64,000 nt of DNA from NCBI GenBank assembly GCA_036500145.1, contig DASYCO010000057.1:23212-87211 (forward strand), written 5' to 3'. Position numbers and translations under genes: made by a program. This DNA comes from Alphaproteobacteria bacterium. GTDB taxonomy: Bacteria > Pseudomonadota > Alphaproteobacteria > SMXQ01. The notes under the pieces were generated by a model. The model was not told where the DNA came from and made no database searches. It saw only the letters and a list, made by a program, of their open reading frames with translations. Below are positions 36,395-53,771 of this stretch, in pieces (within the stretch, counting starts at the first letter, position 1; every line of letters starts with the position of its first letter).

Positions 36395-38116
36395 TTAGTT
36401 CGGGCCAGCGACTTCGCGCAGTTCGCTCAGCAAGTCGAGCGACGGCTCCCCGGTCGGCGGAAGGCCGGCCATCTCCTGATAATGCTTGATCGCCGCGCGC
36501 GTCGGCGCGTCGAGTGTGCCGTTGGGCGCGCTTCGCGTCAGCGCGAGCTTGCGCAGCAAGGTCTGCAGCTCGACGATGTCCTTGCGCGCCAGGGCTTGCG
36601 GCGGCGTTGCCGGGGGAGTCGCCACAGTTGGCGCCGGAGGCGGCGCGGCGGGAGCGGCGCTCGCCGGCGGCAGCGACGCGCCGTGCGGCGCCGGCTGCTG
36701 GCCCGGCAGCATCTTGGATTCGAGCGCGATCATCCGCGTGCGCGCCGGCGTATAGCCGCTGTCGGCGGCCTGTCGATAGAGGCTGTAGGCGGCGTTGAGG
36801 TCGAGCGGGACGCCGAGGCCGTTCTCGTAGAGCTGGCCGAGGTTGTACTGCGCGTCGGGCAGGCCGCCTTCCGCGGCGCGGCGGAACCAGACCGCGGCGA
36901 CGTCGTAGTCGCGCGGCGCGCCGCGGCCTTGGGCGGCGGCGACGCCAAGGTTGTACTGCGCGGCGACATGGCCCTGGTCGGCGGCGGCGCTATACCAGAA
37001 GTAGGCCATGGTCTGGTCCGCCGGCCGGCCAATGCCATGGTCGTAGATCACGCCGAGATTATATTGCGCGTTGGCGAGTCCCTGGACCGCGGCCTTCTCG
37101 AACAGGTCGGTGGCGGTCTTCTGGTCCTTTGGCAGCAGGCGGCCTTCCATCAGCAGGAGAGCGAGGTCGTGCTGGGCCTTGGGATCGCCCTTGGCGGCGT
37201 CGGCGCGCAGCTGCGCGACCAGTTGCGCGTCGCCGGGCGATGGCGTGGCCGCCGGTGGCTGGGCGGCGGCGACGGGCACGGCGGCGGCGGGCGTGAGCGA
37301 TGTTGGCGGCTTGGTTGCGGCTGGCGTGGGTGCCATCGATAGGTCGGCGGCGCTTGCATCGGGGCCGCGCGTTTCATCCAGGTTGGCCAGCTGGATCGCA
37401 GGATCGGGCGCAGCAGCAGGGGCGGCATCGGGCGGCGCCGTGATGTCGACCGGCGCAGGAGCGGCGAGGGCGGGCAGCGGCGCTGCCGTCGCCAGTGTCG
37501 CTGCCGGCGTTGCCGCCGTCGCCGAGCTGGCGGGCAAAGGCAGGTCGACGGCCGCTGCCGCATGAGGCGGTGTCCCGAGGACCGCGTCGACATCGGCCTC
37601 GACGTAAGAGGGCGGCGGCGGTTCTTCCATGTCGAACCAGAGCCAGACCAGCCCGCCGGCGGCGGCGAAGGAGAGGAAGAGCAGGCCGCCCGCCAATATG
37701 CCGAGGCCGCGGCGATAGGCTTGGCCCGGCGGCGGCGCCTTGACTGGCGCGTCGGGGGCGGGCGCGTCAGCGGCAGGCCCATGGGCCGCCCGTTCGGTCA
37801 AGCCGTCGAGCCTTGCCGTCATTGGCGTGACCAGCCGGGTGACATTGTCCTGCGCCGTCTGCAGCCGCGCTTCCAGGACGCCGAGGACTTGCTGGATCGC
37901 GGCTTGCGCTTCGGGATCGTCGAGCAAGGAGTCCGCGTCGGCCTCGCTCGCGTCTACGTCCTCGTCCTCGGACCAGGCTGGCGGCACGACATGGCTGTCG
38001 GCGTTGGCCAGGATGGCGCGGTCGAGCCAGGCGGCGAGGGATAGGCCGTCGGCGTCGGCGGCGGCCTGCGCGCGGCGCTTCGTCGCGTCATCCATGCCGC
38101 GCACGGTCCAGTCCAT
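36395..38116 (-). CDS. PodJ-like polar localization factor: cytoplasmic N-domain, TM, Pro/Ala-rich linker, Sel1 repeats, C-terminal peptidoglycan-binding domain
   Basis: N-term DWTVRGMDDATKRRAQAAADADGLSLAAWL; TM LGILAGGLLFLSFAAAGGLVWLW; Sel1 repeats (AQYNLGVIYDHGIGRPAD etc.); C-term PG_binding_1-like LQTLLRKLAL ... LDAPTRAAIKHYQEMAGLPPTG. Confidence 0.6.
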   Translation of the reverse strand: MDWTVRGMDDATKRRAQAAADADGLSLAAWLDRAILANADSHVVPPAWSEDEDVDASEADADSLLDDPEAQAAIQQVLGVLEARLQTAQDNVTRLVTPMTARLDGLTERAAHGPAADAPAPDAPVKAPPPGQAYRRGLGILAGGLLFLSFAAAGGLVWLWFDMEEPPPPSYVEADVDAVLGTPPHAAAAVDLPLPASSATAATPAATLATAAPLPALAAPAPVDITAPPDAAPAAAPDPAIQLANLDETRGPDASAADLSMAPTPAATKPPTSLTPAAAVPVAAAQPPAATPSPGDAQLVAQLRADAAKGDPKAQHDLALLLMEGRLLPKDQKTATDLFEKAAVQGLANAQYNLGVIYDHGIGRPADQTMAYFWYSAAADQGHVAAQYNLGVAAAQGRGAPRDYDVAAVWFRRAAEGGLPDAQYNLGQLYENGLGVPLDLNAAYSLYRQAADSGYTPARTRMIALESKMLPGQQPAPHGASLPPASAAPAAPPPAPTVATPPATPPQALARKDIVELQTLLRKLALTRSAPNGTLDAPTRAAIKHYQEMAGLPPTGEPSLDLLSELREVAGPN

Positions 38117-38259
38117 TAGGAACGCCTCAGGAATGCGGCCGTCGTTGCTGGCCGCGTCGAGCGGAAATCGGAAAGGCGCAGATCCATGATGGGACGCTCG
38201 GCAGCCGGAAAGGCGGACGGGACCGGTGCGGCGGCGCCGTCCGGCTCAGCCCGGAAGAT

Positions 38260-38787
38260 TCAATCGGAGAAGAGGCGGGAGAAGAAGCCCGGCCGGCGGC
38301 GTCCTTGCGGGTCGGGCCGTTCGTCGCCGGGGCCATGCTCGATGCGGTCGAGCCGCTCCGTCATGCGCATCATGGCGCGCTCGATCGGGTCGACGTCGAT
38401 GCGGGCGTTGCCGCCGCCGTTCTCCTCGACCTGGGCCGAGAGCTTGGCGACCTTCTCGATGATCGGCGCCAGGGCTTCGGCGGTGCGCGCCTCGGTCTCT
38501 TCGATCTTGTTGGCGAGGCGGTTGATGCTTTCGAGCACGGCCTCGGGGGTCAGCGCCGGGGGCTTGGGCGTGGACGAGCCGGCCGGCATGTCGGCCCCGT
38601 AGGACGCATAGTTCGACGGCGCGTAGACGGCCGGGCCGCTCGAGCTCTTGAGCTGCTGGGCGGCCGTGGCATGGATCGTCTGGCTGAGCCAGACGCCGAG
38701 GGGCAGGCCGGCCTTGCGCGCCGCCAGTTTCGCGGCCTCGCGGGCTTCGTGTTCGACGCCCTTTACGCTCCACGGAACATTGGACAT
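38260..38787 (-). CDS. Small coiled-coil protein sharing the PodJ-type N-terminal motif
   Basis: N-term PWSVKGVEHEAREAAKLAARKAGLPLGVWLSQTI parallels the N-term of 36395..38116. Confidence 0.45.
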   Translation of the reverse strand: MSNVPWSVKGVEHEAREAAKLAARKAGLPLGVWLSQTIHATAAQQLKSSSGPAVYAPSNYASYGADMPAGSSTPKPPALTPEAVLESINRLANKIEETEARTAEALAPIIEKVAKLSAQVEENGGGNARIDVDPIERAMMRMTERLDRIEHGPGDERPDPQGRRRPGFFSRLFSD

Positions 38788-39313: not shown

Positions 39314-39388
39314 TTGGGGCGTCGCCAAGCGGTAAGGCACCGGTTTTTGGTACCGGCATTCCCAGGTTCGAATCCTGGCGCCCCAGCC
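39314..39388 (+). tRNA. tRNA-Gln (anticodon UUG)
   Basis: TGGGGCGTCGCCAAGCGGTAAGGCACCGGTTTTTGGTACCGGCATTCCCAGGTTCGAATCCTGGCGCCCCAGCCA; close to E. coli tRNA-Gln(UUG); ends in CCA. Confidence 0.9.
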
Positions 39389-39560
39389 AACCAGTCTGCA
39401 GTTTGCGCGTCTCTCAGAGACTTTGCGGCAGAACTGCGAAAAAGCCCGCCAATGGCGGGCTTTTTTACGTTCGGAGTGACCCGGAGACCCGTTCTACAGC
39501 GATGGTATGGCCAGTTTTGGCCGAGCGTCTCCATTCGCGTTTTCGGGGGTGGCACCTCCA
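39367..39560. repeat. Direct repeat copy 1 (tRNA-Gln 3' end plus ~170 bp downstream, includes a terminator hairpin)
   Basis: ~90% identical to 41817..42008: ttcgaatcctg...cagccaaccagtctgcRgtttgcgcgtctctYagagactttgcggcagaactgcgaaaaagcccgccaatggcgggctttttta... Confidence 0.7.
39443..39466 (+). terminator. Rho-independent terminator after tRNA-Gln (duplicated at 41897-41920)
   Basis: aaaGCCCGCCaatgGCGGGCtttttt. Confidence 0.55.
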
Positions 39561-39758
39561 TAAAGTGCTCAAGACGGCCACTGTGAATTTCATTGGATCG
39601 ACAGAACAGTATTTTGATTTGTCTGCGGGGTTCCGCCCGACACTTGCCGTGAATGTGTCGCGGTCAGCACCCATCGACCACCCATGGCCGACGGGTTATC
39701 CTGCATCCTTAAATTATTGGGCCGCTAAGGCTTAAAAAAGCTATCAGGAGGGTGTGCA

Positions 39759-40517
39759 ATGGCTCGAGTTTGGGATCCTTTCCTCACCGAACAGGACAAG
39801 GCTCACCTCGCGGAGAGACGCGGCGGCGATCGACGCGTTGGCTTCGGCACGCGGCCTGCCATTCTCAACATCGACCTTTATCGCGGCGTGTTCGGCGACG
39901 CGAATGTGCCCTTGCTGGAAGGCACCAAGCTCTGGTCGGGGTACTGCGGCCCGGTTGGCTGGAACACAATTCCTCATGTCCAGCGGCTGCATCGCGAAGC
40001 ACGGGCCGCCGGCATTCCGATCTGCCATGCCACGGGGCTTCTTGACGAAGAGTCCGGCATTCCCGGTTGGTCTCAGGCCATTCACGCCGCGTCCCCGCGC
40101 CGTATCCCTCTAAATGATGAGGCTGCGCGGGATCGTTTTGCGCGGCGCTACGACATTATCGACGAGGTCGCGCCACAAACTGGCGATGTAGTCGTGCGCA
40201 AGGCTTCGCCCAGCGCATTTTGGGGCACCTCACTTATCGCTGAGCTCGTGCGCCTGGGAATTGATACGCTGCTGGTGGCGGGCGAAAGTACCAGCGGATG
40301 CGTGCGCGCGACCGTCGTCGATGCCGCCAGCTACCGTTTCCGCGTGCAGGTGATCGAGGACTGCGTATTCGACCGCCACGAAGCCTGCCATGCCATCAAC
40401 CTGTTCGACATGCATCAGAAATACGCCGATGTCATATCCATCGACGCGGCGGTGGACTATCTCCGCGATTTGAAGGGAGACACTGCTGCCCCGCGCCCCG
40501 CGTTGGTCAATTCGTGA
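39759..40517 (+). CDS. Isochorismatase-family cysteine hydrolase
   Basis: 252-aa ORF with conserved D...K...C triad context (VRKASPSAFWGTSL, GESTSGCVRATVVDA). Confidence 0.7.
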   Translation: MARVWDPFLTEQDKAHLAERRGGDRRVGFGTRPAILNIDLYRGVFGDANVPLLEGTKLWSGYCGPVGWNTIPHVQRLHREARAAGIPICHATGLLDEESGIPGWSQAIHAASPRRIPLNDEAARDRFARRYDIIDEVAPQTGDVVVRKASPSAFWGTSLIAELVRLGIDTLLVAGESTSGCVRATVVDAASYRFRVQVIEDCVFDRHEACHAINLFDMHQKYADVISIDAAVDYLRDLKGDTAAPRPALVNS

Positions 40518-40581
40518 CGGCTTGCCGTTGACCTAAATGCCTGGTTAACGCGGCGCTCAATCACTCGTAGGCGTCCATTGA

Positions 40582-41616
40582 TCACTTGGCAGAATATTCG
40601 ATGGCCTTCTGCACGATCGCATCCGGAATAGCATAGAGACGCGCCAGCAGCGTCGACATGTCCTCGGCGGTGCTCGGCATTACGTCCAACCCCTGCTTTT
40701 CGGCTTCTGTCAAAAAATCCGCATCTTTCATGGTTGCCTGAAATCCCGTGCGCAGGGCTTGCAGCCGGTCGGATGGAATGCCCGGAGGTCCGAGGATCGG
40801 CCGCGCGATCGTCTGCGGGGCAAACACCAAGTCAAGGATGCCTTTCTGTTCATCGGTCTTGGCATAGTCGATGAGCAGCGGGACATCCGGCAAGTCGGGA
40901 TGCTTTTCCAGCGCATGCTGAACGATGAAATTAATCTTTTTTTCTTTGAGCCATTCCGGATGCGTAGTCATCAGGCTCGGCATGCTCCAGGCGCATCGCC
41001 CATGAACCTCGCCGCGCTCCATCGCCAGTAGGACAGCATTGCCGCCGTAGCCTGAGATCACCTTGATGTTCGCGCCAAACAGATTGTTGATGAGAACCGG
41101 CACGCTCGCGATGTTTCCGCCGGCTCCGCCGGCGCCGACGATGAACTCTTGCTTGGCTAAAACTTGGTCGAAGGACTTGATCGGCGCCGTGCCCCAAGAG
41201 ACGCAGAATTGCTGCTCTTTGGTGATGTTGCCGATCATGCTGAGCTGGCGCGGATCGAACTTGGCATGCTCGATGCCGAGCAGCGGCGCCGTCATCATCG
41301 AGGAATGGATCGTGGCGATGACTGTGCCGTCCTTGGCCGCTCTTTCATAAAGGTGATTGGTTGCCGTCAATCCACCGGCGCCGGGCATGTTTTGCACAAT
41401 GATGGAGGGGTTGCCAGGCACGTGGCGAGGGAAGCTACGCGCGAAAGTGCGGGCGTACATATCGTAACCGCCACTCGCGGTGGTGCTGACGATGAGGGTT
41501 ATTTGCCGCTTCTGGTAGAAATCTTGGACTGACTGTCCAATGGCGGGGGATAGGCCGAACGCCGTTGTTATGGCTATGCCGGTGAAGGCCAGTAAGCTCG
41601 TTCGCTCGCGCCACAT
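40582..41616 (-). CDS. Bug/TctC-like periplasmic solute-binding protein (paralog of 4802..5875)
   Basis: Signal peptide; motifs STTASGGYDMYART, NMPGAGG. Confidence 0.5.
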   Translation of the reverse strand: MWRERTSLLAFTGIAITTAFGLSPAIGQSVQDFYQKRQITLIVSTTASGGYDMYARTFARSFPRHVPGNPSIIVQNMPGAGGLTATNHLYERAAKDGTVIATIHSSMMTAPLLGIEHAKFDPRQLSMIGNITKEQQFCVSWGTAPIKSFDQVLAKQEFIVGAGGAGGNIASVPVLINNLFGANIKVISGYGGNAVLLAMERGEVHGRCAWSMPSLMTTHPEWLKEKKINFIVQHALEKHPDLPDVPLLIDYAKTDEQKGILDLVFAPQTIARPILGPPGIPSDRLQALRTGFQATMKDADFLTEAEKQGLDVMPSTAEDMSTLLARLYAIPDAIVQKAIEYSAK

Positions 41617-41816
41617 AAATAACTCCCCTGTGCGATTCGAATTATTCTCTTTGTTACGAGGATAGCCTACCTCGCGGAGGTAGTGGCTAAGATAGGGTGC
41701 AGATAGCGCGCTCTATGGGCACTGGTCTGAAGTCGCCTGATGCCCCAGTCTCCGGGGTGGCGCCTTGAGAAAATAACTGCGTGAATTCAAAGGTATGTGG
41801 GGCAGTGCATCACGAA

Positions 41817-42008
41817 CATTCTCGAGTTCGAATCCTGTCTGCTCAGCCAACCAGTCTGCGGTTTGCGCGTCTCTTAGAGACTTTGCGGCAGAACTGCGAA
41901 AAAGCCCGCCAATGGCGGGCTTTTTTATTACCGGTGCCACCCAGAGACGGTCTTAGTCGCGATGGTATGGCCAGTATTGGCCGAGCGTCTCCATTAGCGA
42001 TTTCGGGG
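41817..42008. repeat. Direct repeat copy 2 with degenerate tRNA-Gln 3' end (att-like remnant)
   Basis: gttcgaatcctgtctgctcagccaacc... matches the T-arm/acceptor 3' half of tRNA-Gln with mismatches, then ~170 bp matching 39389-39560. Confidence 0.7.
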
Positions 42009-42162
42009 GTGGCGGCTCATTAGGTAATACGTCGAATATGTCTCGGCACTTCTCTGTCTTTCGTCTCAAATCTAGGGCGCCTTAGCAATGCGACAGTGAG
42101 CATCGCTAAGGCGGTGGATGGACCGACGGCGTTGTTGTCGTACTAAACAAGAAGGTGCCTAT

Positions 42163-42969
42163 ATGGACCTCAAGATATTTGATGTGGAGCACGGCGCATG
42201 CGCGTTGCTCACATGTGACGATTACACTCGCCTGATGGTCGATTGCGGCCATAACGCAACAACAGCCTGGCGGCCAGGCACATATCTCAAGAATAACGGC
42301 ATCTCTTCACTGGAGATGCTAGCCGTCACTAACTATGACGAAGACCATGTCAGCGCCATCGGTGATCTATTCGATAACGTCGATGTTCAGTGGCTGTCGC
42401 GAAACACGAGTGTATCTTCTGGAGCCATTCGTGCTCTCAAAACAGAAGACGGAATGGGTGCTGGAATACAGCGTCTCACCCATGACATTGATCATGTTTT
42501 CACAGGAGGTGGAATGGCGACGTTGCCACAGTTTCAGGGCTTAGTTCGGCAGGTTTTCTGGAACACTTATCCAACCTTTGATGATGAAAACAATCTCAGT
42601 ATGGTTGTTCATCTCAGTTGCCACGGTAAGGGCGTCATGTTCCCGGGCGATCTTGAGCGTAAGGGCTGGATAGAATTATTAAAGCGCGCGGACTTTAAGG
42701 CTGCCTTAGAAAATACAAGTGTTTTAGTGGCTTCTCATCATGGTCGGGAGAACGGCTGCTGTGCGGAAGTATTTGAATACTGCAATCCGTTCTACGTGGT
42801 GATCTCTGATCAGGGCTACACGTTTGATACGCAGCAGACGATCCCATTCTATCGCCGACATGCCCGCGGCGGGCCGTTTCGAAAAGACCCGGAGCGCCGC
42901 GTACTAACGACCCGCCGCGACGGTCGGATTGGATTTACGTTTTCTCCTGATTCATGGGGGCCATACTAG
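42163..42969 (+). CDS. Metallo-beta-lactamase-fold hydrolase
   Basis: 268 aa from ATG 42163 with RBS gaaggtg; MBL HxHxDH-type motif VTNYDEDHVSAIG, later HHGREN; ~50% GC. Confidence 0.6.
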   Translation: MDLKIFDVEHGACALLTCDDYTRLMVDCGHNATTAWRPGTYLKNNGISSLEMLAVTNYDEDHVSAIGDLFDNVDVQWLSRNTSVSSGAIRALKTEDGMGAGIQRLTHDIDHVFTGGGMATLPQFQGLVRQVFWNTYPTFDDENNLSMVVHLSCHGKGVMFPGDLERKGWIELLKRADFKAALENTSVLVASHHGRENGCCAEVFEYCNPFYVVISDQGYTFDTQQTIPFYRRHARGGPFRKDPERRVLTTRRDGRIGFTFSPDSWGPY

Positions 42970-42988
42970 CAGGCCGTTATGTGGCAAT

Positions 42989-43618
42989 TCACTTCCCGTT
43001 ATTCATGCCGAGATATGCCACGAAGATCTCCCGGGCATAGCGCTTTCCGAAGCGTTGCATCCGGTAGAAGGCAATAATCGCCACGACGAGGCCGCCAATC
43101 CAAAGCTCATGACGTTCTGGCGCTGTTGCTGCGGCCAATGCCGCGAAGACTAGACAGCCCGCGCTAATCCCGCGCAGAAGCCCATAGGTCCGGTTGAAGG
43201 CATCTACTCTTTTGGCGCGCCCGGCTGATTCCAGGACGGAATACATTTCGCGAACCGCAGGGTACCACTGGCGCGTCGTCAGGGCGCCGCAGTCGATCTT
43301 CATATGCTGGCTGCACAAGTCGAGCAGGCGCTGTTTTTGCGTCTCGCTGACGAGCTTCTGGTTATTCTTCAGAAGCCAGTCGGATGGCATGCCGCCATGA
43401 GCGCGCCACCAGGCCATCTCCATGAGATTCCCGATGCCCTGGATCAGATGGCCGACGACCAGTGAGGCGATCAGGAAAAGGCCTAGGCCACCGACATTGA
43501 AGTCGTTGCCTCCGAACATCGCCTTTACGTCCGGATACAAGTATATGGTTCCGAAGATGGCTACGCTGCCCGGCACGATGACACCGATGTACTCGTATGG
43601 ATCAAAACGATCGCTCAT
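42989..43618 (-). CDS. Hypothetical 4-TM membrane protein, translationally coupled to upstream E1-JAB gene (ATGA overlap)
   Basis: 209 aa; hydrophobic segments IGVIVPGSVAIFGTIYLY, GGLGLFLIASLVVGHLIQGI, ISAGCLVFAALAAATA, LWIGGLVVAIIAFY. Confidence 0.5.
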   Translation of the reverse strand: MSDRFDPYEYIGVIVPGSVAIFGTIYLYPDVKAMFGGNDFNVGGLGLFLIASLVVGHLIQGIGNLMEMAWWRAHGGMPSDWLLKNNQKLVSETQKQRLLDLCSQHMKIDCGALTTRQWYPAVREMYSVLESAGRAKRVDAFNRTYGLLRGISAGCLVFAALAAATAPERHELWIGGLVVAIIAFYRMQRFGKRYAREIFVAYLGMNNGK

Positions 43619-45510
43619 TCTGTGGCCTCCAAAGGGATTGTAAGATTCACAGTTTCACCTTTCTCGCCCACGATTAGGACGATTGCCGGACAGGCTTCAA
43701 CTATCAACTCTGTCGAAAGCCAACACATTTGGCTGATGTCCGTTCGACTAGGGGTGGCAGAAGAGCCCTCGGGGTGTGAGTGCCATTCGCCGACATATCG
43801 GACCTGACCCATGGTTTTGGCATGGATGTCCTCGATGTTTGCTGACGTGCCTTGAACTCCTCGTTCGAATCCGCTGGGATCACCTTTACTGTCGGCTGGC
43901 GCCGGCAAAGCGTCGACGAGATGGATCGATTTGGCGACTCGATCCACGACTCCAGCCAGCAGTCCTCCGGTCTCGTTGGGCAGCTCGGATACGCGCAAAG
44001 CCCGAATCGTCCGCAGCAGGCCTTCGTCGACGGTGACCATCCAGTCGTCAATGGCCATTCGGTGCGTGGCCTTCTCGCCATTTTCTGTGATGCGGTTGAC
44101 GTTTCCTCCAGATCCAAGCGTCCATATCGCTATTTGTGCTTGTGGATCATCCATAAACTCAGCCACGGCGCCGGCGGCGATGGCGCTGAGCATACTTGCC
44201 CGATGTTGGGGAATCCGGTTCGTCAAGGAGCGGCAAGATCCGGAATAACGCACACCTTCGGGCGCCTCCAGATGGCCAGCCAACTCGGGCTTATTGAGCA
44301 TCAGGCGGTAATATTGTGCCTCAAGGTCGCGGAGTGTGACCGTCCTTCCGCTGTCTTCGGCCAGCATTACGAGCGCGGTGCCCGCCGGGTTGAAGAAGAC
44401 GGAGAATCGGCGTGACGTCGATTCGATGTCGCTGAGATGTCGGCCGACCGCTACCGAGGCTGATGCATCGAGAATCAGGTCAGCCGCAGATAGCCTTGCT
44501 AAGGCGCTGCTAGACGATTCTACGCCAAGTGCGTCGATGGCCAGCCACTCCGCGACGGTCTGATCTTGAGCAATCGTACAGAGATGCTCGGCCAGGGCGT
44601 TCGCCTTAAGTTGCCCGACGGCGTATGGCAGTAACGCGTGACGGGCAAGATTGTGCGGCAGTAGGTGATCGTGATCGAGAATCGCCCATTTAAAGGCCCC
44701 TTCGCGGACGAGGGTTTCCGCTAACTGCGATCCCAGCGATCCGGCACCGACCATGGCGATCTGGCGATCATCAGGTGCGGGACGACCCGATATTTCAGCC
44801 GCCAACTCTCTGTTGAAAGCGACATGGAGGTCGAGCGGCTGAACGGAAACATTCTTTCCGAGACCAGGGCCGTTCGTCGAAACTCCGACTAACGGAAGGA
44901 AGGCACCAGCCTGACCAGGCGATGCAAGCCACCCAAGAGTGTTCCCCGCATCACCAATCGAAGGAACAATGAGGAACGCGCGGCGATCGACGCCGATATG
45001 TTCTCCGGTATCTGGCCGGACGATGTCGAAGGCTACCGCAAGAGCTAAGTGAGAATCGAGGCGCTGTTTTGCCTCCGTGCTTATCCCTGCCCAGTTCGTA
45101 AACCACCTTTTCAAGATGGGCATGAGATCTATGCCGATTTTGTTTAGTTCGGCGGCAAGTTCAGCCAAGTTCTGTGGCAAGCGTCGTAGCCTGCCCATTT
45201 CTCGCGGTTGGCCTTGAAGTCCCAATACGACAAGCTTCACAAGCCCCTGAGAGACTTCTGACGTCGGGACGGCAATTACGACCTGAGGTTCGGTACCGTT
45301 ATTTTTATGAGCGTAGGCCGAAAGTTCAATTGGCTCCTCGGTTTTACTGAAACAATCGGGGGGTACGACCAGTGCATAACCGAGGTTACGGGAAATTGGC
45401 CGTTCAACTTGCGCGCATCCGCCATGTAGGCCGTTGTCATAGGTATAGAGGCTTCCCACTTCGTCAACTCGACGGCGAGCCGGCCGTGGTATCCGCGTTC
45501 GGCCGTCCAT
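43615..45510 (-). CDS. Fused N-terminal domain + E1-like (ThiF/MoeB) adenylyltransferase + JAB/MPN (JAMM) metallopeptidase; true start uncertain
   Basis: Rossmann MVGAGSLGSQLAETLVREG; candidate catalytic Cys YSGSCRSLT; C-terminal JAMM motif EWHSHPEGSSATPSRTD; first ~38 codons lie inside the autotransporter-duplicated segment. Confidence 0.65.
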   Translation of the reverse strand: MDGRTRIPRPARRRVDEVGSLYTYDNGLHGGCAQVERPISRNLGYALVVPPDCFSKTEEPIELSAYAHKNNGTEPQVVIAVPTSEVSQGLVKLVVLGLQGQPREMGRLRRLPQNLAELAAELNKIGIDLMPILKRWFTNWAGISTEAKQRLDSHLALAVAFDIVRPDTGEHIGVDRRAFLIVPSIGDAGNTLGWLASPGQAGAFLPLVGVSTNGPGLGKNVSVQPLDLHVAFNRELAAEISGRPAPDDRQIAMVGAGSLGSQLAETLVREGAFKWAILDHDHLLPHNLARHALLPYAVGQLKANALAEHLCTIAQDQTVAEWLAIDALGVESSSSALARLSAADLILDASASVAVGRHLSDIESTSRRFSVFFNPAGTALVMLAEDSGRTVTLRDLEAQYYRLMLNKPELAGHLEAPEGVRYSGSCRSLTNRIPQHRASMLSAIAAGAVAEFMDDPQAQIAIWTLGSGGNVNRITENGEKATHRMAIDDWMVTVDEGLLRTIRALRVSELPNETGGLLAGVVDRVAKSIHLVDALPAPADSKGDPSGFERGVQGTSANIEDIHAKTMGQVRYVGEWHSHPEGSSATPSRTDISQMCWLSTELIVEACPAIVLIVGEKGETVNLTIPLEATE

Positions 45511-48500
45511 TCACCAGGTGAAGTTCAGGCTGGCGCTCACGGCATGGCTGCTGTCGGCGGCGTTGAGCGTGCCGTCGTAGCGCAGCGACAGGGTCACGCC
45601 GTCGTCGAGCCGGGCGGCAAGGCCGAGCCCGATCAGCGCGCTGTCGCGGTTCATCTCCGCGCCCTGCACGGTGAAGCCGCTGCCCGGCGCGGCGTCGAAG
45701 CCCGCCGTGACCGGCCGCGCCGTGTCGGCATAGTCGTGCACCCAGCCGACGCGGCCGAGCAGCGCCAGCGGAGAGGCCAGGCCGACGTCGGCGTCATGGT
45801 CGAGCTGCAGGCCGAAGATGCTGCGCAGCGCTTCGGTGGTCTCGCCGGCGACGGCGAGATCGAGCTCGCCGGCGCCCGTTTCGGTGAAGCCGCCCCGGTC
45901 GGCACGGCTCGCCTCCAGGCCGAGGAAGGGCGTCGCCGTGGTCTGCCGGTCGAGCGCCACGGCATAGCCGGCCTCCAGGCTGGCCAGCAGCTGGTGCGCC
46001 GCGGCGTCGCCGTTCGCCGTCGCGCCGATGAAGTCGATCGGGCGTTCGACCGCGTTGTCGGCGTAGCCGTAGCCCAGCGAGCCCTGCAGATAGAAGGCGC
46101 TCGGCTGATAGCTGCCATAGACGGCGAGCTGATAGCTCTTGGCCGTCGCCTTGCCGAGGCCGCCCGCGGCGTTCAGCTTGGTCTCGCCGTAGCCGCCGGC
46201 GAGGCCGGCGACGAGGTCGCGGCCGAAGCGCCGGTCCAGACCCGCCGCGCCGCCGCCGCCGGAGTAGCTCAAAGCGGCGCTGTCGGCGTCGCCGTCGATG
46301 TCGCCGGTCACGCCGCCGCCACTCATCCAGGCCGTCCAGGGCCCGAGGCGCACCGGCGGCGCCGCCTGCGCCGTCTCGTCGGCGCTGGCGAGCTGCGTCA
46401 TGGCCGCCGCGAGGTTGACGCGCTGGCCCCTCGCGTTCGCGCCTTGGGCAAGCGCGTCACCGCCGCGCGCATAGCCGGCCTGCTGGCCGACCGTGCTCAG
46501 GAAGCGCTGGCCCGCTAGCATGGCCACTGTATCGAGGCCGCCATAGATCTCGCCGGACATCTGAGTGAAGGCGTGGTTCGCCTGCGCCGCCGACAGGCCG
46601 GTGAGCGTGGCGACGGCCGTGGCCAGCTGCCCGTTGGCGGCGACCTGATCCAGCGTCGTCGCCACGGCCTGCTGGTTGCCCGTCGCCGCTACGTCGGCGA
46701 AGCTGACGTCGTTGCGGGTGAGGGTCAGGCCGACGTCGCGGAAGTTGTAGGTCAGGCTCGGCGTCAGGAAGGCGAGGTTCGAGGTGACGGCGTCGAACCT
46801 GCCGGTGACGCTGCCGAAGGCGCTGTTCAGGATGGTGTAGTTGGTGGCGGCGGAATAGCTGCCGGTCTCGGCCAGCACGCGGACGGTGCCGCCGTTGATC
46901 GTCACGTTGCCGTTGGCGTTGATGCGGTCCGACTGCCCTGCCGCGTTCACTTCCACCTCGTAGGCCGAGCCGGGGTTGAAGGTGACGGACCTGGCGACAA
47001 TGATCGTGCCGATCGAGTTGCCCGGCGCGAAGGTGCCGAAGGCGAACACGTCGCCGTTGATGGCGCCCGACCCGCCGAGCGTGCCGGCGGCGTTGACCGT
47101 CACGTCGCTCAGCGTGGTGCCGTTGATGCGCAGCGTGCCGGCATCCACCGTCGTGCCGCCGGTGAAGATGTTCGTGCCGGTGAGATTGAGCGTGCCGCTG
47201 CCGTCCTTTGTCAGGCCGCCAGTGCTGGTGATGTCGCCGGAGACCGTCGTGTCGCCGGCGCCGCCGACCGTCAGGTCCTGGCCGGTGCTGCCGATGCTGC
47301 CGCTCAGCGTCAGGCTGACCCCGCTGTTGGCGTCGATGCGCGACGCGGCGGCCAGCGTGAGGTCATTGGCGAGCGCTGCGGTGGCGTCGCCGCGCAGCGT
47401 GCCGCCGTCCAGCGTCACGCCGCCGCTGCCGAGGGCGTCGGTCGCGCTGACGGCGAGCGTGCCGGCGCTGACCGTGGTGCCGCCGCTGTAGCTGTTGGCG
47501 CCGGTCAGCGTCAGCGTGCCGGTGCCGGTCTTGGTCAGGTGGCCGGTGCCGTCGATGTCGCCGGCGTAGCTGGTCGTCGCGCTCTGATCGACCACCAGCT
47601 CGCCGGCGCCAAGCGCGACCGTGCCGCCGGCGCCCGACAGGCTGCCGACGATCTGGTTGAAGCCGTCAAGATCGAAGCTGCCGCCATCGACGGTCAACGC
47701 GCCGCTGGCCGCCAGGCGATCGTTGCCGCCGAGCGCCAACGTGCCGGCCGTCACTGTGGTGCCGCCGCTGTAGGTATTGACGCCGGTCAGCGTCAGCGTG
47801 CCGCTGCCGTCCTGATTGACTGATCCGTTGCCCGTGATTGCGTTACCCACGACCTGGGCCGTCGCCTGATCGAAGGTCAAGCTGCCGCCGTTGACCGCTA
47901 TGTTACCGGTGATGGTCGAACCGGCCTGCAAAGTGAGCGTGTTGGCGCCGCCGGTGAAGGTGATGGCATTGGCGCGGGTCGTCCCGTCGCCGTCGAGGCC
48001 GCCGGCGATGGTGCCGCTGTTGGTGATGGTCAGGTCCGAGCCGACGACGCCGGAGCCACCGGCACCGCCTAAGACGCCACCGCCGCCATTGCCGCCAGAG
48101 ATGGTTCCTTCATTGCTGAGACGCGCGTCAGAATCCGTAAAATAGATACCGGCGCCACCATTGCCGCCGTTGGCGTTGGGACCGAAAACAGTGGGAGTGC
48201 CATTGCCGCCGGCGCCGCCGGTGACGGCATTGGCATTCTGGATCGTTATGTCCCCGCTGCCGTGGAAGGAAAGGCCCACGCCGCCGCCGCCGCCGCCGCC
48301 GCCCCAGGTGGCGGAAGTCCCATTACCGCCAGCGCCGCCCGTTATGTCGGCCTCGACGCTCAGGATGGCACTTCCGAGCGACACGAATCCCGCGCCGCCG
48401 CCGCCGCCGCCGCCGCCGGCAGCACCGCTGCCACCGTTGCCACCACGGCCCCCGACGATGCTGCTGCCAATCGTGGAAACGGTGCCGATGCCACCATCGC

Positions 48501-49200
48501 CGCCGCCGCCGCCGCCGCCGCCGTGGACGTTTCCACTGGCATCATTGCCGTTAATGCCGATTCCACCCCCATCGCCACCGGGTGTTCCAACCCCGCTGGC
48601 CGGTCCGCCTGTACCGACGGTTGCCGGTGCCGACACGAGATTGCCGCCGCCTCCACCCCCACCAACCGTACCCCCATTGTCTCCGTTCATGCCCGGCGCA
48701 CCGCCGCCAATGCCGCAGCAACCACCGCCGTCGTCGCGTGGGGCACCGCCGGCGGCGCCGTTGGCATTGCTGTCAGTGCCGTCGCTGCCGGTGCCGCCGT
48801 TGCCGCCGGTACTCCGGACTGTTCGATTTGCACCGCCGTTGCCGCCGGATCCGCCGGCAAGGGCCGGCGCCGCCACCAGTGTCATCGCCAGGGTGGATGC
48901 ACCGGCCAAAATCACGGCCTTTGCGACGACCGCATTGGCTCTCATTCTGGCGCTGGAAGCCTGGATGGCCTGCGGCGCGCGGCGTGCCGCGCGCGAGGTC
49001 TGACGCACTGAACGATCCCCCGTGTTGCGGCGCGAAGGCTGTCTCCCCGCGCCTCGCTCGTCCCTGCGTCGCAAGCCAGAATGGCTTGCTCTCGCCGGGG
49101 CGACGGCGGGCAAAGCCCCGCGCGGCGCAAGCCTGGCGAGAGGCATTCTTGCCTGCGGCGCGAGTATCTCTATTGGGGATGCGGAGTTTTAGCCCCCTAT
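45397..49200. repeat. Large duplicated segment copy 1 (autotransporter gene plus flanks); copy 2 at 56148..60330
   Basis: Flank identity >85% by eye at both ends (e.g. 45400-45600 vs 56150-56350; 48960-49100 vs 60090-60230). Confidence 0.7.
45511..48945 (-). CDS. Autotransporter (type Va) with Gly-rich (GGNGG) passenger and C-terminal beta-barrel; ORF extends to 49146
   Basis: Signal peptide MRANAVVAKAVILAGASTLAMTLVAAPALA; extensive GGxGG repeats; C-terminus ...LSLRYDGTLNAADSSHAVSASLNFTW (terminal aromatic W). Confidence 0.8.
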   Translation of the reverse strand: MRANAVVAKAVILAGASTLAMTLVAAPALAGGSGGNGGANRTVRSTGGNGGTGSDGTDSNANGAAGGAPRDDGGGCCGIGGGAPGMNGDNGGTVGGGGGGGNLVSAPATVGTGGPASGVGTPGGDGGGIGINGNDASGNVHGGGGGGGGDGGIGTVSTIGSSIVGGRGGNGGSGAAGGGGGGGGAGFVSLGSAILSVEADITGGAGGNGTSATWGGGGGGGGVGLSFHGSGDITIQNANAVTGGAGGNGTPTVFGPNANGGNGGAGIYFTDSDARLSNEGTISGGNGGGGVLGGAGGSGVVGSDLTITNSGTIAGGLDGDGTTRANAITFTGGANTLTLQAGSTITGNIAVNGGSLTFDQATAQVVGNAITGNGSVNQDGSGTLTLTGVNTYSGGTTVTAGTLALGGNDRLAASGALTVDGGSFDLDGFNQIVGSLSGAGGTVALGAGELVVDQSATTSYAGDIDGTGHLTKTGTGTLTLTGANSYSGGTTVSAGTLAVSATDALGSGGVTLDGGTLRGDATAALANDLTLAAASRIDANSGVSLTLSGSIGSTGQDLTVGGAGDTTVSGDITSTGGLTKDGSGTLNLTGTNIFTGGTTVDAGTLRINGTTLSDVTVNAAGTLGGSGAINGDVFAFGTFAPGNSIGTIIVARSVTFNPGSAYEVEVNAAGQSDRINANGNVTINGGTVRVLAETGSYSAATNYTILNSAFGSVTGRFDAVTSNLAFLTPSLTYNFRDVGLTLTRNDVSFADVAATGNQQAVATTLDQVAANGQLATAVATLTGLSAAQANHAFTQMSGEIYGGLDTVAMLAGQRFLSTVGQQAGYARGGDALAQGANARGQRVNLAAAMTQLASADETAQAAPPVRLGPWTAWMSGGGVTGDIDGDADSAALSYSGGGGAAGLDRRFGRDLVAGLAGGYGETKLNAAGGLGKATAKSYQLAVYGSYQPSAFYLQGSLGYGYADNAVERPIDFIGATANGDAAAHQLLASLEAGYAVALDRQTTATPFLGLEASRADRGGFTETGAGELDLAVAGETTEALRSIFGLQLDHDADVGLASPLALLGRVGWVHDYADTARPVTAGFDAAPGSGFTVQGAEMNRDSALIGLGLAARLDDGVTLSLRYDGTLNAADSSHAVSASLNFTW

Positions 49201-51781: not shown

Positions 51782-52234
51782 GTGGTATCAATGGTCTTAC
51801 ATCCCTCATCTTCTGTCGGCAATGGCAGCGATTTGACCTTGCCGGCCAACTTGGCCGATGCGGCGACACGCCGACGTCTGACACCAGCTGCGATAGAGGG
51901 GTTTGTCCGCTTGAGCGAACTGTGGCGCCTGACGAACAGCGAGGCCTGCGCGCTGCTGGGAGACATGTCGGAGCGAACTTGGTTTCGCATGAAGGCATCG
52001 ACTTGGAGCGGCGAGCTCACGCAGGACAGCCTGACGCGCATCAGTGCCACCATCGGCATCTTCAAGGGCCTACGCTTGCTGTTTTCGCTGCCGCTGGCAG
52101 ATGAATGGGTCAAGCTGGCCAATGCAGGGCCGGTGTTCGGTGGCCGTGCGCCCTACGATGTCATGCGAGATGGCGGTATTCCGGCCATGCTGCAAGTCCG
52201 CCGGCATGTGGATGCGTTGCGCGGCGGGCTCTAA
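51782..52234 (+). CDS. Antitoxin, Xre/MbcA/ParS family (DUF2384 toxin-binding domain)
   Basis: 150 aa; stop 3 bp before RES toxin start; C-terminal DUF2384-like region. Confidence 0.6.
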   Translation: MVSMVLHPSSSVGNGSDLTLPANLADAATRRRLTPAAIEGFVRLSELWRLTNSEACALLGDMSERTWFRMKASTWSGELTQDSLTRISATIGIFKGLRLLFSLPLADEWVKLANAGPVFGGRAPYDVMRDGGIPAMLQVRRHVDALRGGL

Positions 52235-52236
52235 TG

Positions 52237-52947
52237 CCAATTGCCGTGACCAGCCTCAAGCCCCGTCGAACCGTGCGCTTGATTCCAACGGGGCGCCTTA
52301 AGGATCCCGTCCTGCAGCCATTGGCCTCCAGCGCACAGGGACTGGAGGCTTTGGCGCAATTGGAAGGGGTCACCAATGAACGTCTCACCGCCCAGCACAC
52401 GGGGCTGCCAGATCTGCATCCACGTGAGCTGGTGTTTGGTCGCGCGGGACATACGCTGATCAATGCTGCCTTCACGCACGTGCGGCCAGGTGGCAGTCGC
52501 TTCAATGATGAGAACCGCGGCGCTTGGTACTCAGCCTTCGAGACGCGCACGGCTATCGCGGAAGTCGCCTACCATCTCACGCGCGAATTGCAGGCCATCG
52601 GCCGCTTCGAGAACGTCACCGACTATACCGAGCTCTTTGCCGATTTTAGCGGCCCGTTCCATGATTTGCGGGGCGGGCAGCACACCGGCATGCGCTATCT
52701 CGCCGCAGATATTTCGGTGGGCTATCCCGCCGGTCAGGCGCTCGCCAGGGAGCTGCAGACGAAAGAAGTCAGCAACGGCGTGATTTACCCCTCCGTGCGC
52801 CGGCAAAATGGCGTCTGCCTTGCGGTCTTTCGCCCAGGGTTGGTGCAGAACGTGCAGCAGGGGGGGATCTGGCGTCTGGAATGGCACGGCCATCCCAAGC
52901 CGCGGGTGACGCGGATCGACATGGCAAGCGACGCAGCGCAAGCCTGA
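52237..52947 (+). CDS. RES-domain toxin (MbcT/ParT-like NAD+ phosphorylase/ADP-ribosyltransferase family)
   Basis: 236 aa from ATG 52237; conserved R...E...S context (GVIYPSVRRQNGVCLAVF). Confidence 0.7.
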   Translation, partial: PIAVTSLKPRRTVRLIPTGRLKDPVLQPLASSAQGLEALAQLEGVTNERLTAQHTGLPDLHPRELVFGRAGHTLINAAFTHVRPGGSRFNDENRGAWYSAFETRTAIAEVAYHLTRELQAIGRFENVTDYTELFADFSGPFHDLRGGQHTGMRYLAADISVGYPAGQALARELQTKEVSNGVIYPSVRRQNGVCLAVFRPGLVQNVQQGGIWRLEWHGHPKPRVTRIDMASDAAQA

Positions 52948-53154
52948 ATGAGCATTTCCGATCTCGACATCTATCGCACGGCGAATGAGCTCATACGGCA
53001 TCACGCGGCCGACGCACGGCTGCAAGCCGCACAGTTTGCTGACCTCTGCGCAACGCGTCACGACCGGGCGGGATTTAATGTCTGGGTTAGGGTCATTGCA
53101 GCTATCCAGCAGCTGCAGGAGGTAAACGTTCCGAATGGCACGGTTCAGCACTAG
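52948..53154 (+). CDS. Small hypothetical protein (68 aa), start overlaps RES toxin stop (TGAATG)
   Basis: ORF only; position in operon. Confidence 0.3.
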   Translation: MSISDLDIYRTANELIRHHAADARLQAAQFADLCATRHDRAGFNVWVRVIAAIQQLQEVNVPNGTVQH

Positions 53155-53671
53155 GCTCCCAACGCGCCGCAAGCTCATCAGCATAGCTGTGGCGCTCATC
53201 GTTGCGGCAGGCAGCGCGCTTTACTCACAATTGACGGCGCAACCGGCGGACGCTGGCCTTACAGGCATTGCGTCGGTGATCGACGGAGACACCATCGATA
53301 TCCATGGTCAGCGGATTCGCTTCCATGGCATCGATGCCCCGGAGAGCCGGCAAACTTGTGAGCGGAATGGAAAGCCCTGGCGCTGTGGCCAGCAGGCCGC
53401 CTTGGCTCTGTCCGACTATCTCGGGCAGAAATCGGTGCGTTGCGAGAAAAAGGACGTTGATCGCTACAAGCGCATCGTCGCGATTTGCTACGTAGGCACG
53501 ACGGACGTAAATGCCTGGCTGGTGCGCGAGGGATGGGCTTTGGCTTACCGGCAATATTCGAAGGATTACGTTGCCATCGAAGAAGCCGCCCGCCGGCAGA
53601 AGGTGGGGATTTGGCAGGGCGAGGTTCAAGCCCCCTGGGAATGGCGCCGTAAGCCCAAGAAGCAAAGCTGA
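53135..53671 (+). CDS. Thermonuclease (SNase-like) with N-terminal membrane anchor/signal
   Basis: SNase motifs GDTIDIHGQRIRFHGIDAPE and later R...E...R...Y...W pattern. Confidence 0.7.
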   Translation: MARFSTRLPTRRKLISIAVALIVAAGSALYSQLTAQPADAGLTGIASVIDGDTIDIHGQRIRFHGIDAPESRQTCERNGKPWRCGQQAALALSDYLGQKSVRCEKKDVDRYKRIVAICYVGTTDVNAWLVREGWALAYRQYSKDYVAIEEAARRQKVGIWQGEVQAPWEWRRKPKKQS

Positions 53672-53771
53672 TCCTGCTTGCCATGGCGGCCGTAGCGCCG
53701 GAGAATGGCAGCATGTCAGTTGCCCTCCGCCAGAAGCATTTCGAGCGATTACCTGCCGTCAGGTAAAGCGC

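What the first reader, a model, noticed from the sequence alone, without database searches (positions are those of the whole stretch)
42010..45510. Low-GC mini-island next to tRNA-Gln: (N-domain)-E1-JAB triple-fusion, a coupled 4-TM protein and a convergent MBL-fold hydrolase
A 631-aa protein fuses a ThiF/MoeB-type E1 Rossmann domain (MVGAGSLGSQ ... candidate catalytic Cys in YSGSCRSLT) to a C-terminal JAMM/MPN peptidase (EWHSHPEGSSATPSRTD), preceded by a ~200-aa N-terminal domain of unknown nature (possibly E2-like). Its stop overlaps the start of a 209-aa four-TM protein (ATGA coupling), and an MBL-fold hydrolase converges 20 bp away. The block sits immediately after an att-like tRNA-Gln repeat and is visibly AT-richer (~50% GC) than the backbone. 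E1+JAB (+E2) fusions are the hallmark of prokaryotic ubiquitin-like conjugation modules (CBASS Cap2/Cap3, Bil/Bub-type and related operons), and an association of such modules with MBL proteins has been noted in comparative-genomics literature (from memory). Here there is no cyclase, and no Ubl or beta-grasp gene is evident: neither neighbour ends in Gly-Gly. The TM protein is the only effector-like partner, so the combination does not match a named system.
Basis: partly seen in the sequence, partly recalled or inferred. Interest (0 to 1): 0.78.

Follow-up and report, generated by a model that had tools for sequence, protein, structure and literature searches.

The report
Truncated remnant of 6A-MBL defence operon
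The block is the leftover 3' part of an already named anti-phage system (6A-MBL): a deletion removed its key enzyme gene and the first part of its ubiquitin-ligase-like protein, so it is a decayed copy of a known system, not a new one.

Summary
All three ORFs, the ATGA overlap, the low GC and the tRNA-Gln repeat are real. The "unnamed system" reading fails. The 631-aa protein scores 524.8 bits (cut-off 320) on NCBIfam NF058523, "anti-phage 6A-MBL system cap2_3 protein". This is Iyer/Aravind operon type 6a, later shown to defend against phage.

The window copy is 5'-truncated. Intact homologues are about 750 aa with an N-terminal Prok-E2_A domain. The window protein aligns only from residue ~148-152, so the invariant E2 Cys114 is gone.

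The canonical partner is also missing. This is the 6A-MBL enzyme, whose tail motif P-x-R-A-G ends in Gly in most copies. It sits directly upstream of cap2_3 in 79 of 80 genome loci and in the closest relatives. It is absent from all 64 kb here.

The remnant abuts the stop codon of an autotransporter gene. An independent assembly spans that junction with 0 mismatches.

The 4-TM protein is Csx27-like and recurs next to 6A-MBL (19 of 80 loci; every locus of the window's clade). The convergent MBL is a shorter paralogue matching PADLOC candidate PDC-M48B. TM plus MBL pairs also occur without cap2_3.

Verdict: a recently decayed known system with a possibly still functional TM/MBL accessory pair. 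Low interest.

The parts
43615..45510 (-). ORF of 631 codons: a 5'-truncated cap2_3 gene (E2-E1-JAB protein of the 6A-MBL system). Family homology runs only from about 45428/45414 down to 43615.
   Evidence: NF058523 scores 524.8 bits (cut-off 320), matching model positions 89-665 only. Homologues are 750-757 aa and carry PF14457 Prok-E2_A. Alignment starts at residue ~148-152 of the intact protein. DNA homology to L001 runs 45380..41817.
45415..45510 (-). Junction leader of 96 nt between the autotransporter stop (TGA, 45513-45511) and the first homologous cap2_3 codons. It is read through in frame from ATG 45510. JGI and NCBI call GTG 45459 as the start.
   Evidence: No homology to intact loci. 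Predicted disordered, pLDDT about 28. Sequence shown. No promoter-like or terminator-like site here.
44791..45426 (-). Residual C-terminal edge of the E2 region plus the linker domain (residues ~29-240).
   Evidence: Aligns with residues ~150-360 of intact cap2_3. It is a folded alpha/beta domain with pLDDT 70-92. The whole model matches E. cloacae Cap2 (7TO3_A) over 474 columns, E=1e-19. PADLOC gives no hit for this fragment alone.
44428..44763 (-). E1 (ThiF/MoeB-type) adenylation domain core. The conserved E1 Cys426 (RYSGSCR) is encoded at 44233-44235.
   Evidence: Pfam ThiF 43.8 bits. PDB Cap2 is the best sequence hit. GxGxxG, R, D and the Cys are conserved in 78 homologues and kept here.
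43687..44022 (-). JAB/JAMM metallopeptidase domain (E513; H577-S-H579; S588; D591).
   Evidence: Pfam Prok-JAB 47.3 bits. PADLOC JAB 91 bits. The catalytic motif residues are at positions 100% conserved in 78 homologues.
42989..43618 (-). 209-aa Csx27-like multi-pass membrane protein. Its start overlaps the cap2_3 stop (ATGA).
   Evidence: PADLOC Csx27 E=6.8e-5; relatives hit Csx27 at 2.5e-12. The family lies next to 6A-MBL in 19/80 loci and in every locus of the window's clade. dN/dS is 0.06.
42163..42969 (+). 268-aa MBL-fold hydrolase (MBL2). It is a PDC-M48B-type, ComEC-like paralogue of the 6A-MBL enzyme, without the conjugation tail. It converges on the TM gene.
   Evidence: PADLOC PDC-M48B 258.7 bits. 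NF058524 gives only 16.2 bits against a cut-off of 220. It shares the D / xDxDH / N / GD / HH motifs with the 6A-MBL enzyme, but has N in place of the first His (TNYDEDH). It ends ...SWGPY. dN/dS is 0.09.
41817..42018 (+). Copy of the last 33 nt of tRNA-Gln plus about 170 nt of its downstream flank, including the terminator hairpin. This is the original tRNA-proximal edge of the island.
   Evidence: Direct repeats D1/D2, 87-92% identity, spacing 2460. The segment is contiguous with MBL2 in L001.
39315..39389 (+). Intact tRNA-Gln(TTG).
   Evidence: ARAGORN.
45511..49146 (-). High-GC autotransporter gene. Its stop codon forms the deletion junction. It is not part of the system.
   Evidence: Pfam Autotransporter 200 bits plus PATR. 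GC 0.68-0.74.

Best explanation
The block is the tRNA-Gln-proximal remnant of a small horizontally acquired defence islet. In intact relatives the islet encodes four genes: the 6A-MBL enzyme (about 380 aa), Cap2_3 (E2-E1-JAB, about 753 aa), a Csx27-like TM protein (209 aa), and a convergent PDC-M48B-type MBL.

How the intact system most likely works (inferred from the Type II CBASS Cap2/Cap3 paradigm, from the literature statement on MBL pathways, and from the conserved tail found here):
1. The E1 domain adenylates the C-terminal Gly of the MBL enzyme (tail motif P-x-R-A-G).
2. The enzyme passes through the E1 Cys and then the E2 Cys, and is conjugated to a target. This primes the MBL hydrolase for antiviral action.
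3. The JAB domain trims precursor tails and reverses conjugation.
4. The TM protein and the second MBL are an accessory PDC-M48-like membrane/hydrolase arm.

In this window a deletion removed the operon promoter, the MBL-enzyme gene and the first ~150 codons of cap2_3, including the invariant E2 Cys. The break was joined to the 3' end of an autotransporter gene. Ubl-like conjugation therefore cannot occur here, because there is no substrate and no E2 active site.

The E1-JAB remnant is best read as a recently inactivated gene: the ORF is still open and omega is about 0.15-0.18. The TM and MBL2 genes are intact and under strong purifying selection. They may still act as a PDC-M48-like pair if they are transcribed.

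Shown: family identity, the truncation, absence of the partner gene, the conserved Gly tail, and the recurrence of TM and the second MBL. Inferred: the conjugation chemistry, the roles of TM and MBL2, and loss of function.
For: - Family identity: NF058523 at 524.8 bits, covering model positions 89-665 only.
- Truncation: homologues are ~750 aa with Prok-E2_A. The window aligns only from residue ~148-152, and the invariant R93, F96, H101, C114 and W139 are missing.
- Closest intact loci L001-L003 (76% aa identity) have the order 380-aa NF058524 enzyme (404.7 bits), then cap2_3, then TM, then convergent MBL2. They sit in the same Sel1/tRNA-Gln chromosomal neighbourhood.
- Partner gene: the 6A-MBL enzyme is directly upstream of cap2_3 in 79/80 genome loci and absent from the 64-kb window, even at E=10.
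- Conjugation tail: 67/82 enzyme C-termini end in Gly, 53 of them in AG. Most of the others carry a short extension after RAG.
- Structure: the model's best PDB match is Cap2, 7TO3.
- Junction: identical in JGI and NCBI-TPA assemblies. A Logan contig spans it with 0 mismatches.
- Literature: operon type 6a is defined as an E2-E1-JAB triple module plus a specialised MBL (PMC1779556). [quoted passage not shown] 6A-MBL is listed among known (jumbo-)phage defences.
Against: - The remnant ORF is open for 631 codons and its dN/dS (0.15-0.18) is barely above that of intact homologues (0.13-0.145). Loss of function is inferred from missing parts, not from decay.
- The TGA-ATG abutment to the autotransporter could allow expression.
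- A second, independent truncated cap2_3 (JAB only) plus TM pair is abundant in Acidobacteria. This could mean truncated forms retain a role.
- Only 64 kb of a 208.7-kb contig was visible, so a displaced partner gene elsewhere cannot be excluded.
- The primary 6A-MBL experimental paper could not be read.
Confidence: 0.8

Rival explanations
1. The truncated E1-JAB protein, the TM protein and MBL2 together form a functional, reduced system. For example, a JAB peptidase or E1 adenylase could regulate a membrane effector and a nuclease, without E2 and without the canonical MBL enzyme.
For: - The ORF is open, omega is 0.15-0.18, and every E1 and JAB catalytic residue is kept.
- The ATGA coupling to TM is retained.
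- An independent JAB-only + TM pair is seen on 79 contigs.
- TM and PDC-M48B-type MBLs recur with cap2_3 across the clade.
Against: - No substrate with a Gly tail is present. MBL2 ends ...WGPY and TM ends ...NNGK.
- The promoter and the ribosome-binding context are lost, and no promoter-like site is found.
- 79/80 relatives keep the enzyme and a full-length E2.
- The abundance of the acidobacterial pair reflects many samples of one lineage, not independent conservation.
Confidence: 0.1
2. Only the TM + MBL2 pair matters. It is an autonomous PDC-M48-like candidate defence module that merely hitch-hikes next to 6A-MBL, and the E1-JAB remnant is irrelevant debris.
For: - MBL2 scores 258.7 bits on PDC-M48B.
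- MBL2 homologues at 60-74% identity occur in many phyla without cap2_3, next to small multi-TM proteins. In L093 the neighbour is PDC-M48A (201 bits). In L091 it is a Csx27-like TM.
- TM dN/dS is 0.06 and MBL2 dN/dS is 0.09.
- MBL2 dS to L001 (0.21) is far lower than that of TM and cap2_3 (0.82-0.86), which shows separate histories.
Against: - The window's TM does not hit the PDC-M48A models.
- The TM is translationally coupled to cap2_3, not to MBL2, and the two genes converge instead of forming an operon.
- In the window's clade the TM always follows cap2_3.
- This reading overlaps with the best explanation more than it competes with it.
Confidence: 0.07
3. Assembly artefact: the metagenome contig is chimeric at about 45415-45510, and the real genome carries an intact 6A-MBL operon.
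For: - The source is a metagenome contig.
- There is an abrupt GC step at the junction.
Against: - The same truncated protein appears in three assemblies made by different pipelines.
- Logan contig L090 equals window 45581..41898 with 0 mismatches and crosses the junction by 71 nt.
- No repeat at the junction could mislead an assembler.
Confidence: 0.03

Closest known systems
6A-MBL anti-phage system (Iyer, Burroughs & Aravind 2006 operon type 6a; NCBIfam NF058523 cap2_3 + NF058524 MBL enzyme; phage defence reported by van den Berg et al. 2024)
   Same: - The large protein belongs to the cap2_3 family (524.8 bits) with intact E1 and JAB catalytic residues.
- Close relatives (76% identity) sit in complete 6A-MBL operons at the same chromosomal site.
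   Different: - The first ~150 residues are missing, including the E2 HxN...C active site.
- The MBL enzyme gene with its P-x-R-A-G tail is absent.
- The operon promoter region is gone.
- This is a remnant, not a complete system.
Type II CBASS Cap2 (E2-E1) / Cap3 (JAB), e.g. E. cloacae Cap2, PDB 7TO3
   Same: - Best structural and sequence match in the PDB.
- Same E2-linker-E1 layout in intact homologues.
- Same logic of conjugating the system's own enzyme through its C-terminus, with a JAB peptidase as antagonist.
   Different: - There is no CD-NTase and no cyclic-nucleotide effector.
- JAB is fused to the C-terminus instead of being a separate Cap3.
- The substrate is an MBL-fold hydrolase.
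- Only 17% identity over the structural alignment.
PADLOC phage-defence candidate PDC-M48 (A: ~164-aa multi-TM protein; B: MBL-fold hydrolase)
   Same: - MBL2 matches PDC-M48B over its full length (258.7 bits).
- A small multi-TM protein is encoded next to it.
- PDC-M48A itself weakly resembles Csx27.
   Different: - The window's TM is not recognised by the PDC-M48A models.
- The two genes converge instead of forming a co-directional pair.
- The TM is coupled to cap2_3.
- PDC-M48 is only a candidate, and no paper mentioning it was found.
Csx27 family of 4-TM proteins (type VI-B1 CRISPR accessory). Makarova, Gao, Zhang & Koonin 2019, FEMS Microbiol Lett fnz088, linked the family to competence components and ubiquitin-system multidomain proteins.
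   Same: - Weak but consistent profile similarity: window 6.8e-5, relatives down to 2.5e-12.
- Same size and multi-TM layout.
- Same reported neighbourhood theme (ubiquitin-type multidomain protein plus ComEC-like MBL).
   Different: - No Cas13b or CRISPR array is nearby.
- It is far below the NCBIfam Csx27 cut-off (11.7 against 65 bits).
- The 2019 paper could not be read here. Its content is known only from its title and a secondary summary and from memory.
Bil and Bub bacterial ubiquitination-like operons
   Same: - They use E1, E2 and JAB-type components for protein conjugation in a defence context.
   Different: - Those systems encode a separate beta-grasp Ubl and separate or differently fused enzymes.
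- No Ubl gene exists here or in intact relatives.
- BubCD is only a distant structural match (rmsd about 18 Å).

Membership tests
6A-MBL system | Large protein passes the curated cap2_3 model (NF058523, cut-off 320 bits) | tested here: met
   524.8 bits, but only model positions 89-665 are matched. The intact relative L001 scores 631.9 bits over positions 1-665.
6A-MBL system | N-terminal E2 (Prok-E2_A/UBC-like) module with the catalytic Cys, as first part of the E2-E1-JAB triple module | tested here: not met
   PF14457 is present in 117 of the 120 listed homologues but not here. Residues equivalent to 1-~147, including the 100%-conserved C114, are absent. No fragment is found elsewhere in the window at E<=10.
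6A-MBL system | E1 adenylation domain with the conserved Cys | tested here: met
   ThiF 43.8 bits. C426 and the nucleotide-binding motif residues are kept. The fold matches Cap2 E1.
6A-MBL system | C-terminal JAB/JAMM peptidase with E...HxH...S..D | tested here: met
   Prok-JAB 47.3 bits. All motif residues are kept.
6A-MBL system | Adjacent specialised MBL-fold enzyme (NF058524, cut-off 220 bits) with a C-terminal P-x-R-A-G tail | tested here: not met
   No homologue in the 64-kb window. The neighbouring MBL scores 16.2 bits and ends WGPY. The enzyme is present upstream of cap2_3 in 79/80 loci.
6A-MBL system | Protects against phage infection | not testable with these tools
   Known only from literature statements for the family.
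Type II CBASS | CD-NTase cyclase plus a cyclic-nucleotide-activated effector next to Cap2/Cap3 | tested here: not met
   None of the three block proteins hits a CD-NTase or effector model. The flanking genes are an autotransporter, a LuxR-type regulator, TctC and an isochorismatase.
PADLOC candidate PDC-M48 | PDC-M48B MBL-fold protein | tested here: met
   PDLC04674 scores 258.7 bits over the full length.
PADLOC candidate PDC-M48 | PDC-M48A small multi-TM protein encoded beside it | tested here: inconclusive
   The window's TM hits only Csx27 (6.8e-5), not PDC-M48A. A genuine PDC-M48A (L093, 201 bits) also weakly hits Csx27, so the families are related. The gene order and orientation differ.
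Csx27 (type VI-B CRISPR accessory) | Passes NF040557 (cut-off 65 bits) and lies beside cas13b | tested here: not met
   11.7 bits. No CRISPR-related gene was seen among the ORFs examined around the block.
Bil / Bub ubiquitination-like operons | Separate beta-grasp Ubl gene with a C-terminal Gly | tested here: not met
   No small ORF of that kind is present in the block or in the intact relatives L001-L003. The Gly-tailed protein in this family is the MBL enzyme.

The most novel reading that the evidence does not exclude
The most novel reading not excluded has two parts.

First, the Csx27-like TM protein and the PDC-M48B-type MBL may be true third and fourth components of a distinct 6A-MBL subtype, in which a membrane arm is coupled to the conjugation enzyme.

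Second, 5'-truncated forms may be retained because the JAB or E1 part still controls the TM/MBL arm. Two such forms are seen: E1-JAB + TM here, and JAB-only + TM in an abundant acidobacterial lineage. If so, the window would hold a working reduced system and not debris.
Probability: 0.1. Interest if true: 0.5.

Novelty: already known. Interest (0 to 1): 0.22.

Why it matters
As it stands it matters little: it is a decayed copy of a system defined bioinformatically in 2006 and since named and validated. It still has three uses.

1. It is a caution for annotation. The remnant passes the NCBIfam equivalog cut-off although the E2 active site and the partner enzyme are missing, so automated pipelines will call a 6A-MBL component where no working system exists.

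2. The comparison set assembled here gives support, by sequence, for the conjugation model. The 6A-MBL enzyme carries a near-universal P-x-R-A-G C-terminus, sometimes with a short extension that a JAB peptidase could trim.

3. A Csx27-like membrane protein and a PDC-M48B-type MBL recur beside 6A-MBL. This points to an untested accessory arm that experimenters working on this system could include.

Tried and rejected
- PADLOC on the isolated N-terminal 248 aa and on the E1 C-terminal half gave no hits, so PDC-M48A is not a cap2_3-like protein.
- A full-text search for 'PDC-M48' found nothing.
- These papers are not held: van den Berg 2024 (DOI), Ledvina 2023 (PMC10292035), Chambers 2024 (PMC11476048) and Makarova 2019 (PMC6700684). 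Their content is cited only through other papers or marked as memory.
- Relaxed tblastn (E<=10) of the missing E2 segment and of the 6A-MBL enzyme against all 64 kb found only noise. This rejects a frameshifted or relocated copy within the window.
- A test for pseudogene-like relaxation by dN/dS found no clear signal: 0.15-0.18 against 0.13-0.145. Old decay is rejected and the deletion is taken as recent.
- The promoter scan of 41600-45800 found 0 sites, against 2.3 expected.
- The assembly-chimera idea was rejected because three assemblies agree and L090 spans the junction exactly.
- The iterated MBL2 profile merged with the 6A-MBL enzyme family. This showed they are paralogues. They had to be separated by length and tail motif.
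- The idea that the tRNA-Gln repeat marks the att site of the E1-JAB block was rejected. In L001 the block abuts the tRNA directly, and the repeat here brackets a later 2.46-kb insert.

Full report
**Observation**

- The stop of the 631-codon ORF overlaps the start of the 209-codon ORF as gaATGAgcg.
- The MBL-fold ORF converges on the 209-codon ORF with 19 nt between the stop codons.
- The MBL's real start is probably ATG 42163 (268 aa), behind an AGAAGG site. JGI and NCBI call that start.
- Pfam finds ThiF (43.8 bits) and Prok-JAB (47.3 bits) above their gathering scores.
- GC is 0.48-0.60 across the block, against 0.70-0.76 outside it.
- tRNA-Gln is at 39315-39389. Its last 33 nt plus about 170 nt of flank recur at 41817-42018.

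**What the large protein is**

NCBIfam names it directly. NF058523, "anti-phage 6A-MBL system cap2_3 protein", scores 524.8 bits against a cut-off of 320. The match covers only model positions 89-665.

Of the 120 best homologues listed, 117 are roughly 700-780 aa (mostly about 750) and carry Prok-E2_A + ThiF + Prok-JAB. The window's own cluster (614 aa) and one 626-aa hit (P0017) lack Prok-E2_A.

In alignments the window protein begins to match at residue ~148-152 of the intact proteins. In 78 full-length homologues the N-terminal conserved residues are R93, F96, P97, H101, P110, C114 (100%) and W139 (100%). This is the HxN...C signature of an E2 active site. All of them are missing here. Downstream of the break every residue conserved at 90% or more is retained except one, P281 (Asp here). 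That includes the E1 Cys and the JAMM motif.

The first ~41 residues of the ORF are predicted disordered, and the rest folds well (pLDDT 82, pTM 0.76). The best PDB match is E. cloacae Cap2, 7TO3, over 474 columns (by sequence).

**What is missing**

The closest intact loci are L001/L002 (JGI metagenomes) and L003 (Logan), at 76% aa identity. Their gene order is:
1. a 380-aa protein that scores 404.7 bits on NF058524, "6A-MBL system MBL-fold protein" (cut-off 220);
2. cap2_3 (750-753 aa);
3. a 209-aa TM protein (90-92% identical to the window's);
4. a convergent 268-aa MBL (about 95% identical), seen in L001 and L002. The L003 contig ends after the TM gene.

In L001 and L002 these are followed by the same Sel1/PG-binding neighbourhood that lies at 36395-38787 in the window. 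DNA homology runs from window 45380 to 41817 (83.6%) and then stops.

Across 80 loci from GTDB species genomes, the 6A-MBL enzyme gene lies directly upstream of cap2_3 in 79. The exception is cut by a contig end. The window has no homologue of it anywhere in 64 kb, even at E=10.

The remnant abuts, in frame, the TGA of a high-GC autotransporter gene. No promoter-like site or minus-strand terminator lies near the junction.

The same truncated protein occurs in a JGI contig, an NCBI TPA MAG and a Logan contig. The Logan contig equals window 45581..41898 with 0 mismatches and crosses the junction. A chimeric assembly is therefore unlikely.

**Why there is no Ubl**

I checked the enzyme C-termini in the collected loci. 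Of 82 ORFs, 67 end in Gly and 53 end in AG, within a P-x-R-A-G motif. Most of the others carry a short extension after RAG. That is what one expects of a substrate for E1 adenylation, with optional trimming by JAB. This enzyme is the gene deleted from the window. Neither remaining neighbour has such a tail.

**The two neighbours**

The TM protein resembles Csx27 weakly (6.8e-5). Its relatives do so more clearly (2.5e-12).

A profile built from the family finds it beside 6A-MBL in 19 of the 80 loci, usually just after cap2_3. It is present, always overlapping the cap2_3 stop, in every locus of the window's own clade.

The convergent MBL matches PADLOC candidate PDC-M48B (258.7 bits). It is a shorter paralogue of the 6A-MBL enzyme: it shares the metal-site motifs, has N in place of the first His, and lacks the conjugation tail. 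Its homologues (60-74% identity, more than 2000 proteins) are spread over many phyla and often lie in mobile contexts without cap2_3, beside small multi-TM proteins. One of those neighbours is a true PDC-M48A (201 bits) that also weakly hits Csx27.

PDC-M48B-type MBLs lie within a few kb in every locus of the window's clade that has enough flanking sequence.

It appears to have been noted before: the title of Makarova et al. 2019 and a secondary summary link the Csx27 family to competence components and ubiquitin-system proteins. I could not read that paper itself.

**State of the remnant**

| Gene | Pairwise dN/dS, window vs relatives | dS, window vs relatives |
|---|---|---|
| cap2_3 remnant | 0.12-0.18 | 0.82 (L001), 1.00 (L003) |
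| intact cap2_3 pairs (for comparison) | 0.13-0.145 | – |
| TM | 0.06 (L001, L003) | 0.86 (L001), 0.65 (L003) |
| MBL2 | 0.09 (L001) | 0.21 (L001) |

- The remnant ORF has no internal stop. The deletion is therefore recent relative to the divergence measured, or the remnant still has some use.
- The much lower MBL2 dS shows a recombination boundary between MBL2 and the TM gene.
- A second, independent case exists: a JAB-only fragment, 80% identical to the end of a full cap2_3, followed by the TM gene, in an abundant acidobacterial lineage.

**Mechanism and verdict**

Operon type 6a was defined in 2006 as a triple-module E2-E1-JAB protein next to a specialised MBL (PMC1779556). It is now listed among known phage defences.

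The window holds the 3' remnant of such an operon. Without the enzyme substrate, the E2 Cys and the native promoter, conjugation cannot take place here. The TM/MBL2 pair is intact and may still act as a PDC-M48-like module.

I put 0.8 on this reading. About 0.1 goes to a functional reduced system, 0.07 to "only TM/MBL2 matters", and 0.03 to an assembly artefact.

The finding is a decayed member of a known kind. Its residual value lies in the annotation caveat, the conserved Gly tail, and the recurrent TM/second-MBL accessory arm.

Noticed in passing
window 39357-42018: A 2.46-kb segment carries an isochorismatase-family gene (39759-40517, +) and a TctC-type solute-binding gene (40582-41616, -). 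It is bracketed by ~200-nt direct repeats (39357-39558 and 41817-42018, 87-92% identity). The repeats comprise the last 33 nt of tRNA-Gln and its terminator hairpin. The segment is absent from relatives L001/L002, so it is a later insertion at the same tRNA.
   Followed up: partly
L088/L089 6357-7777 (Acidobacteria; TM protein P0126 seen on 79 contigs): This is a second, independent 5'-truncated cap2_3. A JAB-only ORF of 161-209 aa is 80% identical to the last 155 aa of a full-length cap2_3 (L055). It is followed directly by a Csx27-like TM gene. Recurrent retention of the JAB end plus TM may be chance decay or a functional mini-module.
   Followed up: partly
L001-L083, C-termini of the 6A-MBL enzyme genes: The tail motif P-x-R-A-G is near-universal and ends in Gly in 67 of 82 ORFs. 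Most of the remainder carry short extensions after RAG (for example RAGC, RAGSVIK, RAGRRG). This looks like precursor tails for JAB trimming and supports the enzyme as the conjugated moiety.
   Followed up: partly
window 42969-42989 boundary: Synonymous divergence to L001 is 0.21 for MBL2 but 0.82-0.86 for the TM and cap2_3 genes. This indicates a recombination breakpoint between the convergent genes and a mosaic history for the islet.
   Followed up: no
window 51782-55213: Another mobile patch lies here: an Xre-like antitoxin (51782-52234) and a RES toxin (52105-52947), an SNase-family nuclease (53135-53671), tRNA-Leu(TAA) (53772-53858), and directly after it a tyrosine integrase (54098-55213). 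GC is about 0.59-0.63.
   Followed up: no
L092 (Nitrosomonas oligotropha) 419-11489: A PDC-M48B-type MBL plus a 211-aa membrane protein sits between two tandem filamentous-prophage-like gene sets (Phage_CRI, Coat_B, Zot). This suggests the MBL module can ride on inoviruses.
   Followed up: no
window 43615-45510 versus NCBIfam NF058523: A curated 'equivalog' model passes its cut-off by 200 bits on a protein that lacks the E2 active site and whose partner gene is missing. Automated annotation would report a 6A-MBL component here without flagging the truncation.
   Followed up: yes
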